From assembly GCA_964016885.1 (NCBI GenBank), contig OZ024749.1, positions 37,448,001 through 37,512,000 of the forward strand: a DNA stretch of 64,000 bases, read 5' to 3'. How positions within the stretch are numbered: position 1 is the first letter of the stretch; each line of letters starts with the position of its first letter. Below the pieces are notes generated by a model. That model worked only from the letters and a program-made list of their open reading frames with translations, ran no database searches and was not told the origin of the DNA. This stretch comes from Eledone cirrhosa. Taxonomy: Eukaryota. Positions 6,985 through 7,803 of the stretch are shown here, one piece after another. The position numbers were made by a program, and so were the translations under genes.

Positions 6985-7103
6985 ATAAATTGAAACAAAA
7001 TGAAAACGAAATTTCATTTCTCACTCTTAGTATGGCACTTACTTAAATGTAAGTATGCATGTATACGTACATACATATATGTATACAGACGTACAGTAGC
7101 ATG

Positions 7104-7175
<72 letters not shown>

Positions 7176-7803
7176 ACACATACATATGCATACAGGTACA
7201 CATACATATATGCACGTATCAGTTTAGCGGCGCTTATTATAACGTCGCTTTGTTCGTTTGTAAACAAACTGAACAGCCTGAATTTATGCCATACGGTGTT
7301 AAGGCAACCACGTCACCTTTTTGTTCAACACTGACACAGGAACGATGTACTAGTTTCAAGCTTGTTAGCTATCATCAGCACCGTTTACCCATCTGCCAGA
7401 TAGTTGAACGTTCGAAAGTATATACTTTCCTTATGAAAATTAACGGCTGAGCAGCCTAATTTGAATATTGAGTGAGTTAAATCGGCCAGGCATACCGAAA
7501 ACGATAAATTGAAACAAAATGAAAACGAAATTTCATTTCTCACTCTTAACATGGCACTTACTTAAATGTAAGTATGCATGTATACGTACATGGTTGCCTT
7601 AACACCGTATGGCATAAATTCAGGCTGTTCAGTTTGTTTACAAACGAACAAAGCGACGTTATAATAAGCGCCGCTAAACTGATACGTGCATATATGTATG
7701 TGTACCTGTATGCATATGTATGTGTATATATATATATATATATGTGCATGCTACTGTACGTCTGTATACATATATGTATGTACGTATACATGCATACTTA
7801 CAT
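6985..7803 (-). mobile_element. Non-coding hammerhead element: ~520-nt monomer, partial tandem copy and inverted arm
   Basis: 6985-7503 monomer; 7504-7591 repeats its first ~88 nt; 7592-7803 is an inverted copy of 7047-7309; flanked by (TA)n; family fragment at 57411-57465. Confidence 0.85.
7341..7385 (-). ncRNA. Minimal type I hammerhead ribozyme
   Basis: Minus strand reads AACGGUG-CUGAUGA-U-AGCU-AACA-AGCU-U-GAAA-C-UA-GUA/CAUCGUU: 7-bp stem I, full core, 4-bp stem II, palindromic mini stem III, GUA cleavage triplet. Confidence 0.88.

What the first reader, a model, noticed from the sequence alone, without database searches (positions are those of the whole stretch)
6985..7803. ORF-less ~520-nt monomer in partial tandem with an intact minimal hammerhead: footprint of a circular RNA template?
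One full monomer (6985-7503) is followed directly by a repeat of its own terminal ~88 nt (7504-7591) and then an inverted arm lacking the last ~60 nt. The hammerhead at 7341-7385 (-) is complete, with a palindromic ACUAGU stem III typical of dimer-acting minimal hammerheads. A more-than-unit-length copy with no coding capacity is what reverse transcription of a circular or multimeric retrozyme RNA would leave.
Basis: partly seen in the sequence, partly recalled or inferred. Interest (0 to 1): 0.78.

Follow-up and report, generated by a model that had tools for sequence, protein, structure and literature searches.

The report
Hammerhead retrozyme with Penelope-type insertion
This is one copy of an abundant, protein-free repeat in an animal genome that carries a predicted self-cutting RNA motif and sits in the longer-than-unit, back-to-back form typical of Penelope-type jumping genes, so it is likely a new example of a known kind of genomic parasite whose proposed circular RNA stage remains untested.

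Summary
The anatomy is real: a 519-nt non-coding unit (6985-7503, minus sense) with a complete type I hammerhead (7341-7385), an 88-nt repeat of its 3' end, and an inverted arm lacking 62 terminal nt, inside (TA)n. Public-run contigs from three studies bridge the head-to-tail joint and none of the listed loose ends at the joint leaves for other sequence, so the unit is a real monomer of an abundant family, not a Penelope ORF remnant. Partial tandem, 5' inversion and a one-sided tail are the published signature of Penelope-like element (PLE) insertion; three other families in the window show the inversion and one-sided tail, one with a Hydra-clade ORF. The locus does not prove a circle: it has one hammerhead, and uncleaved read-through RNA, the substrate in the only in vitro PLE system, leaves the same footprint. 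An octamer-TATA-GGCAG cassette upstream of the ribozyme, if a true promoter, would make a circle or template jump necessary for the family. The circle idea is already published (2014, 2020), and this scan has reported several like families elsewhere in this genome. New member of a known kind; interest 0.3.

The parts
6985..7503 (-). Full 519-nt non-coding unit (GC 32.6%); RNA sense is the minus strand
   Evidence: joint 7503/7504 bridged in other copies
6985..7046 (-). 62-nt 'tail' present at the left end of the insertion and missing from the right arm; inferred to lie between two reverse-transcription start sites (6985 and about 7047, the latter in the loop of a predicted ACUUAC/GUAAGU hairpin)
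   Evidence: (TA)n-flanked end at the 6985-equivalent in 9 contigs of run X2; meaning of tail from PMC11167929; site 7047 seen at this locus only
6997..7006 (-). Two U4 runs, the first such runs downstream of the candidate start at 7397; possible leaky Pol III terminator (inferred)
7107..7187 (.). Internal (TA)n tract with palindromic flanks, copied in both arms (shorter in the inverted arm)
7341..7385 (-). Type I hammerhead motif, palindromic stem III ACUAGU, U.U at the base of stem II, predicted cut 7348/7347
   Evidence: family variants at 5% or more fall at N7, loop II and stem I only
7325..7409 (-). Predicted long bulged extension of hammerhead stem I
   Evidence: z -2.56 for 7314-7414; 2 of 200 shuffles as good
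7393..7466 (-). Promoter-like cassette: octamer 7466-7459 (one mismatch in this copy, exact in most copies), TATATA 7424-7419, GGCAG starting 7397, 27 nt after the TATA
   Evidence: 0 of 20000 shuffles; spacing window set after seeing the data; 7464 A>C in 99.9% of X1 depth; function untested
7504..7591 (-). 5'-truncated upstream copy (88 nt of the unit's 3' end), i.e. the pseudo-LTR; no hammerhead in it
7588..7803 (+). Inverted, 5'-truncated arm (copy of 7047-7313), stopping 34 nt short of the hammerhead cut site; joined by 3 of 4 matching nt
5368..6984 (.). Left TA-rich target region (pure TA tract from about 6660)
7804..8322 (.). Right (TA)n target tract; no target-site duplication can be read in the microsatellite

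Best explanation
This is a young copy of an abundant non-coding repeat family with a hammerhead motif, likely a non-LTR retrozyme that is likely pasted into (TA)n by a borrowed Penelope-like reverse transcriptase-endonuclease priming from both ends of the cut DNA at two fixed sites in the RNA. Shown: the anatomy, the family-wide joint, the (TA)n-flanked 3' end. Inferred: donor loci with two or more units are transcribed from the promoter-like cassette (start near 7397), read through weak U4 stops, and are cut by paired hammerheads into 519-nt monomers that a host ligase would close; the enzyme nicks (TA)n, starts one cDNA at 6985 that runs 607 nt through the cut site and the joint, starts a second at about 7047 that runs 266 nt, and the two are joined by microhomology, giving tandem + inversion + one-sided tail. 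This copy has one hammerhead, one promoter-like block and a mutated octamer, so it is likely a dead end. I put the identity (PLE-mobilised retrozyme-type element) at about 0.9 and the circular template step at about 0.45.
For: Joint 7503/7504 bridged by 31 or more letters on both sides in listed contigs of X1 (record 8), X2 (records 1, 4, 6), X4 (record 9, 2 differences) and X6 (record 16, whole stretch): 4 of 8 runs laid, 3 samples, 3 studies. 4868 contigs of X1 and 1163 of X2 lie on the stretch with share running on into unlike sequence 0; summed depth shows no break at the joint (587k, 663k, 812k in neighbouring bins of X1). Listed loose ends near the joint are diverged homologues of the unit or (TA)n (9 contigs at 7504 in X2). 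In the hammerhead, variants at 5% or more in X1 are 7364 (loop II), 7374 (N7), 7381 and 7385 (stem I), none in the 12 core positions. Three other families in the window form inverted insertions in (TA)n whose two ends differ by a 72-134-nt tail, one carrying an RT + C-terminal GIY-YIG frame with CxCX5C, CxxC and CxH, the Hydra-clade marks of PMC8557442 section 11, a (TA)n-targeting clade. Literature: PMC8557442 (partial tandem, inversion, tail), PMC11167929 (tail = two RT starts, both strands cut and extended), PMC7229834 (animal retrozymes give circRNAs, RtcB ligates them; axolotl motifs with U.U or palindromic helix III cleave well only as dimers), bioRxiv 10.64898/2026.07.22.740005. Promoter-like cassette in order, 0 of 20000 shuffles: a linear transcript from an upstream-type promoter loses one promoter per round, so persistence needs a circle, a jump or master arrays (inference).
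Against: No RNA evidence of any kind. Only one hammerhead here; no listed contig spans a whole unit, so dimers were not seen. PMC11167929 found cleavage dispensable in vitro and no RNA reads ending at the cut site; 8 of 9 Xenopus retrozyme dimers did not cleave (bioRxiv 10.64898/2026.07.22.740005). G10.1-C11.1 is replaced by U.U, and the 45-nt motif folds better in a non-active form (-9.5 against -7.4 kcal/mol). Absence of core variants is weak by itself (P 0.27 for 0 of 4 in the core; P 0.03 for 2 of 3 at free positions). The autonomous partner is unidentified: similarity of the end to the Hydra element in the window is matched by 18% of shuffles, the ACUC...UUGAGU hairpin seen in the other three tails is absent, and two motifs of the unit were not found in the PMC8557442 supplement. 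The second start site (7047) is not among the loose ends listed (8 of 40 rows shown, 14 of 149). The promoter is untested and its spacing test is partly post hoc. Summed contig depth is no copy number.
Confidence: 0.75

Rival explanations
1. Same element, but the template is linear, uncleaved read-through RNA from a donor with two or more units (or a transcript with redundant ends started in the upstream repeat); no circle is involved and master arrays keep the family alive.
For: A read-through RNA from a dimer would allow up to about 930 nt of cDNA; this locus needs 607 (arithmetic). [quoted passage not shown] PMC8557442 and PMC6765202 (passages): PLE transcripts start in the upstream pLTR; Naiads give the same footprint without canonical hammerheads. 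The two 88-nt copies differ by 2 nt, private to this locus, which fits either model.
Against: If the cassette at 7393-7466 is an upstream-type promoter, each linear round loses one promoter (inference). Hammerhead core is kept across the variants listed.
Confidence: 0.35
2. Hammerhead-cut linear monomers are the template and the reverse transcriptase jumps across the cut (to the other end of the same RNA or to another monomer).
For: One of 30 contigs laid in X9 ends at 7346, one base from the predicted cut, and continues into unrelated sequence, as run-off from a cleaved RNA would.
Against: A single contig; this locus reads cleanly through 7348/7347, and no insertion, deletion or joint at that site reaches 5% in X1 or X9.
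Confidence: 0.15
3. The piece is only the truncated 3' end (pLTR) of an autonomous PLE; 7503 is a chance truncation point.
For: Most minimal hammerheads in animal genomes were judged to be truncated PLEs (PMC4209133); a truncated Hydra PLE lies 8 kb away. Unitigs are short, most loose-end rows were not shown, and a rare ORF-bearing parent would be easy to miss.
Against: The same joint stands in other copies from three studies and in diverged subfamilies; share of contigs running on into unlike sequence is 0 in X1 and X2.
Confidence: 0.07
4. DNA-level fold-back and slippage in a (TA)n tract, a MITE-like DNA element, or misassembly produced the repeat pattern.
For: The region is microsatellite-rich, and an inverted duplicate of flank (6534-6615 at 8323-8404, 96%) shows that fold-back events occur here.
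Against: Family-wide joint, recurring (TA)n-flanked end, an intact ribozyme on one strand, and the same asymmetric-end pattern in three unrelated families.
Confidence: 0.03

Closest known systems
Metazoan non-LTR retrozymes (Cervera and de la Pena 2020, PMC7229834; Li, Clavereau and Pollet 2026, bioRxiv 10.64898/2026.07.22.740005), especially axolotl Rtz331/Rtz353
   Same: Non-coding, low-GC unit with a type I hammerhead, head-to-tail joints, palindromic weak helix III (as HHR_Amex1) and U.U at the base of helix II (as HHR_Amex2); length within the 51-972 bp range of the 2026 survey; proposed PLE mobilisation.
   Different: This locus has 1.17 units and one hammerhead (a 'monomer' in the 2026 terms); cleavage and circRNA untested; insertion ends show PLE tail and inversion, which the text I read of those papers does not analyse; host probably a cephalopod (from earlier notes, not tested), a group not described in the parts read.
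Penelope-like element insertions (Craig et al. 2021, PMC8557442), incl. Hydra clade and non-autonomous Chlamys such as MRC1
   Same: Partial tandem (pLTR), inverted 5'-truncated copy at the 5' end, tail at one end only, (TA)n target.
   Different: No RT/EN frame; tail 62 nt rather than 30-40; hammerhead 362 nt from the 3' end and outside the repeated part here; no end similarity to an autonomous family found.
Poseidon PLE of Anolis in vitro (Frangieh et al. 2024, PMC11167929)
   Same: Two start sites that delimit the tail; AT-rich target; both DNA ends extended; start in a stem-loop.
   Different: That element is autonomous, its hammerhead overlaps the ORF start, and cleavage was not needed for insertion.
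Newt satellite 2 (Coats, Zhang and Epstein 1994; seen only as cited in PMC2220036)
   Same: Hammerhead repeat with an snRNA-type promoter inside the unit, as the octamer-TATA cassette here suggests.
   Different: Cited as Pol II-transcribed; the cassette here has a TATA and downstream U4 runs, more U6-like (recalled knowledge); no PSE could be tested.

Membership tests
Type I hammerhead ribozyme | Core CUGAnGA, GAAA, UH with stems I-III in type I order | tested here: met
   stem III only as a palindromic intermolecular duplex (-4.8 kcal/mol)
Type I hammerhead ribozyme | G10.1-C11.1 pair at the base of stem II | tested here: not met
   U.U in this copy and in nearly all X1 depth; precedent HHR_Amex2 in PMC7229834
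Type I hammerhead ribozyme | Rfam hammerhead model at gathering score | tested here: not met
   no hit; HH9 18.5 bits against 52
Type I hammerhead ribozyme | Self-cleavage | not testable with these tools
   needs in vitro assay; one contig truncated at 7346 is a weak hint
Metazoan non-LTR retrozyme | Short non-coding, low-GC unit with a type I hammerhead | tested here: met
   519 nt, GC 32.6%, longest sense frame 54 codons
Metazoan non-LTR retrozyme | Head-to-tail repetition of the unit as a family trait | tested here: met
   joint bridged in 4 of 8 runs laid, 3 studies
Metazoan non-LTR retrozyme | Two or more consecutive units each with a complete hammerhead ('active' criterion of the 2026 preprint) | tested here: not met
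   one hammerhead at this locus; other loci could not be read as no genome is held. This lowers 'active copy', not membership of the family as a monomeric offspring
Metazoan non-LTR retrozyme | Expressed as circular and linear monomer RNA | not testable with these tools
   no RNA run available among those listed
Metazoan non-LTR retrozyme | Highly self-paired monomer | tested here: inconclusive
   z -10.65 with the TA tract, -2.1 without
PLE-type insertion (non-autonomous PLE) | Partial tandem forming a pLTR | tested here: met
   7504-7591
PLE-type insertion (non-autonomous PLE) | Inverted 5'-truncated copy adjacent to the 5' end | tested here: met
   7588-7803
PLE-type insertion (non-autonomous PLE) | Tail at one end only | tested here: met
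   62 nt, 6985-7046; longer than the 30-40 nt of PMC8557442
PLE-type insertion (non-autonomous PLE) | Microsatellite target | tested here: met
   (TA)n on both sides; TA-flanked ends in 9 contigs of X2
PLE-type insertion (non-autonomous PLE) | 3' end similar to an autonomous PLE family | tested here: inconclusive
   not significant against the one ORF-bearing PLE in the window; two motifs absent from one supplement; the genome's other PLEs could not be searched
Autonomous PLE | RT + GIY-YIG ORF between pLTRs | tested here: not met

The most novel reading that the evidence does not exclude
The family is a self-promoted RNA circle: a U6-like promoter inside each unit drives read-through RNA that paired hammerheads cut and a ligase closes, and a Penelope enzyme copies the circle from two fixed start sites onto both ends of a (TA)n break. 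Because the promoter lies upstream of its start site, only rolling (or jumping) through the cut can regenerate it, so these insertions would be a genomic record that PLE reverse transcriptases use circular templates, the open explanation of PLE tandems.
Probability: 0.35. Interest if true: 0.6.

Novelty: new member of a known kind. Interest (0 to 1): 0.3.

Why it matters
How Penelope-like elements make their partial tandems, and whether their hammerheads and retrozyme circles take part, is stated as unresolved in the papers read (PMC8557442, PMC11167929, the 2026 preprint). A short, young, very abundant non-coding family with readable ends is a convenient substrate: the lengths of upstream partial copies and the state of the cut site across thousands of insertions, or one in vitro comparison of circular and linear RNA, would separate circle, jump and read-through. 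This single locus, however, is an ordinary truncated offspring and settles none of it, and the same pattern has been logged repeatedly in this genome.

Tried and rejected
No whole genome is held, so copy number, dimers and partner PLEs could not be counted. No RNA holder listed among 24 runs; this says nothing on expression. Depth left of the joint is about half that in the tail (X2 344-413k against 855k), as one-unit-plus-stub insertions would give, but summed contig depth is unreliable and the stretch edge interferes, so it is not used. Exact pattern scans of metagenome and viral contigs: 0. Rfam gathering: 0 in the window; the E-value scan is dominated by TA-rich miRNA models, rejected as chance. 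ARAGORN: 0. The repeat finder was swamped by (TA)n. Shared 'ATAAA' ends with the Hydra element: rejected, 18% of shuffles. An exact octamer alone occurs in 5.7% of shuffled units; only the ordered cassette is unusual. A 6-bp helix across the joint (AGUGAG/CUCACU, pair probabilities 0.82-1.0) has no control and is not used. Pfam (this copy of the library) names neither the PLE frame nor most of its relatives; the Hydra call rests on motifs and a by-eye match to the published alignment. Sequence look-ups in earlier findings: nothing. Literature searches for a cephalopod retrozyme (listings only) showed no paper describing one; the supplement of PMC7229834 could not be read and the preprint's supplements are closed, and either may list such a family.

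Full report
Observation. The sequence at 6985-7803 is as described. 7504-7591 repeats 6985-7072 at 86 of 88 nt, and 7588-7803 is an inverted copy of 7047-7313 that differs only in the length of the internal TA tract and one base in the joint. The arm therefore lacks 62 nt of the unit's end. A type I hammerhead lies on the minus strand at 7341-7385 with all 12 core positions, a 7-bp stem I, a 4-bp stem II closed by U.U instead of G-C, and the palindrome ACUAGU as stem III; the predicted cut is 7348/7347. My descriptor gives 4 hits in the window against a mean of 0.045 in 200 shuffles. Rfam does not call it (none at gathering, 18.5 bits on HH9). The unit has no sense frame over 54 codons. Read in RNA sense the locus is: inverted arm, 88-nt truncated copy, full unit, (TA)n. 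It has one hammerhead only.

Is the unit a true monomer? No genome is held, so I used public runs: 20 of 24 listed runs hold words of the stretch and I laid 8 of them. X1 and X2 (one sample) give 4868 and 1163 contigs, with share running on into unlike sequence 0, and summed depth without a break at 7503/7504. Listed contigs bridge the joint with 31 or more letters on each side in X1, X2, X4 and X6 (3 samples, 3 studies); the X4 and X6 contigs differ from this locus by 2 and 5 letters, so they are other copies. X9 covers the joint with shorter overlaps; X3 gave one short match, X8 and X23 nothing. The loose ends shown (14 of 149 and 8 of 40 rows) near the joint are diverged versions of the same unit or (TA)n directly left of 7504 (9 contigs in X2), so 6985 is a recurring genomic end. 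None at the joint leaves for other sequence. Hammerhead variants at 5% or more in X1 sit at N7, loop II and stem I; that is in the expected direction but statistically weak. This copy has three private changes in 406 nt (7464, 7486, 7549-7550), so it is young. The many organism labels are not evidence of a wide host range, since raw reads with X9's label held none.

What the shape means. Craig et al. (PMC8557442; passages, section 11 and supplement search hits read) describe partial tandem, an inverted 5'-truncated copy and a tail at one end as the usual PLE insertion, with (TA)n as target for Naiad and Hydra. Frangieh et al. (PMC11167929; parts 1-2 of 4) show that a PLE enzyme cuts and extends both strands and starts at two internal sites that delimit the tail. 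The window holds three more families with inverted arms in (TA)n whose ends differ by a tail: 12107-18122 and 27455-28004 (134 nt), 26822-27019 and 58463-58655 (79 nt), 28351-28562 (72 nt, with its own hammerhead). The first carries a 542-codon frame (15700-17328, minus) with RT motifs, a C-terminal GIY-YIG-type domain, CxCX5C, CxxC and CxH, with 947 relatives among 7994 candidates scored; motifs and a by-eye match to the published alignment place it in the Hydra clade. So PLE machinery that targets (TA)n has been active in this genome, and the 'missing 60 nt' is the PLE tail. The actual partner is not identified: the end similarity is not significant and the hairpin shared by the other three tails is absent here.

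Promoter-like block. The family variant at 7464 (99.9% of X1 depth) completes an octamer upstream of the ribozyme. Earlier notes of this scan report an octamer-TATA-GGCAG-ribozyme-oligo(T) order in other families; I checked it here and found it: octamer 7466-7459, TATATA 7424-7419, GGCAG at 7397, first U4 runs at 7006 and 7000; 0 of 20000 shuffles and no other place in the window match, with the caveat that I set the spacing window after seeing the data. Newt satellite 2 is cited as having an snRNA-type promoter (PMC2220036, passage; the 1994 paper itself not seen). That it works as a U6-like promoter is inference from recalled knowledge.

Mechanism. Most likely: donors with two or more units are transcribed from this block, read through weak stops, and paired hammerheads (palindromic stem III; dimer behaviour as in PMC4209133, parts 1-2 of 4, and PMC7229834, parts 2-4 of 6) release a 519-nt monomer that RtcB would close. 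A PLE enzyme nicks (TA)n and primes at 6985 and about 7047 by 2-3 nt of AT pairing; one cDNA runs 607 nt across the cut site and the joint, the other 266 nt; they join by microhomology. Shown are the DNA anatomy, the family-wide joint and the recurring left end; transcription, cleavage, ligation and the enzyme are inferred. The first cDNA crosses the cut site cleanly, which excludes a simple run-off from a cleaved monomer but fits a circle, an uncleaved read-through RNA or a precise jump. Against the circle: cleavage was dispensable and unprocessed RNA dominant in PMC11167929; Naiads make the same footprint without canonical hammerheads; 8 of 9 Xenopus dimers did not cleave (bioRxiv 10.64898/2026.07.22.740005, parts 1-3 of 5); the isolated motif prefers a non-active fold. 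For it: circRNAs are shown for coral, mussel and axolotl retrozymes, and an upstream-type promoter cannot be maintained by linear copying alone. One X9 contig ending at 7346 hints that cleaved RNA is sometimes copied. I give the circle about 0.45, linear read-through 0.35, jumps 0.15.

Comparison and novelty. It works like a metazoan non-LTR retrozyme mobilised by a PLE and meets the sequence criteria of that family; it fails the 'active' criterion of two hammerhead units at this locus, and cleavage and circRNA are untested. The idea that hammerhead-cut circles explain more-than-unit PLE copies was proposed in 2014 (PMC4209133) and extended to retrozymes in 2020; the 2026 preprint ties retrozymes to PLE pLTRs. 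Searches for a cephalopod example (listings only) showed none, with unread supplements as a gap; the host is called octopus in earlier notes and I did not test it. This scan has already reported several such families on other pieces of the same genome, including a 522-nt unit (unchecked notes). Verdict: real, correctly described, new member of a known kind, circle unproven; interest 0.3, rising to about 0.6 if the self-promoted circle (probability 0.35) were shown.

Noticed in passing
window 12107-18122: 5'-truncated Hydra-clade PLE (frame 15700-17328, minus) with a 99.6% identical inverted arm (12241-12706 against 18122-17656), a 134-nt one-sided tail and an unusually long 3' region of about 3.5 kb; no canonical hammerhead found in 12100-15700 by my descriptor or core search.
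   Followed up: partly
window 27455-28004: Second insertion of the same family's 3' end as an inverted pair with the same two ends and the same 134-nt tail.
   Followed up: partly
window 28351-28562: Another hammerhead family (28425-28473 plus, mirrored at 28370-28418 with a stem I change), also with U.U at the base of stem II, inverted pair with a 72-nt tail in (TA)n.
   Followed up: partly
window 26822-27019, 55729-55892, 58463-58890, 62461-62541: A third short family in (TA)n with inverted arms and a 79-nt tail; two insertions side by side at 58463-58890. The tails of this family and of the two above share an ACUC-UG...UU-GAGU hairpin-like motif that the studied element lacks.
   Followed up: partly
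window 6534-6615 and 8323-8404: 82 nt of flank is duplicated in inverted orientation (96%) beyond the right TA tract, so the element sits in the middle of a larger, apparently older palindrome; cause unexplained.
   Followed up: partly
window 57409-57468: Diverged (85%) fragment of the studied element covering roughly the tail only, next to a tRNA-type SINE-like repeat (57180-57310, second copy 667-774); a similar end variant appears in X2 contigs.
   Followed up: partly
window 7549-7550: The upstream repeat has AC where the family has GT, a two-base change equal to its reverse complement, private to this locus.
   Followed up: no
window 29628-30266 (+): Last exon of a C2H2 zinc-finger gene (Pfam zf-C2H2); looks Zic-like (name recalled, not tested).
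   Followed up: partly
window 35890-36076, 41031-41371, 28119-28245: Further self-inverted repeats; 41031-41371 abuts (TA)n and may be the same kind of insertion.
   Followed up: no
window 19717-22934 and 51236-52987: 83-bp minisatellite of about 40 copies, and a 57-bp array that reads as an open 583-codon repetitive frame; probably chance openness.
   Followed up: no
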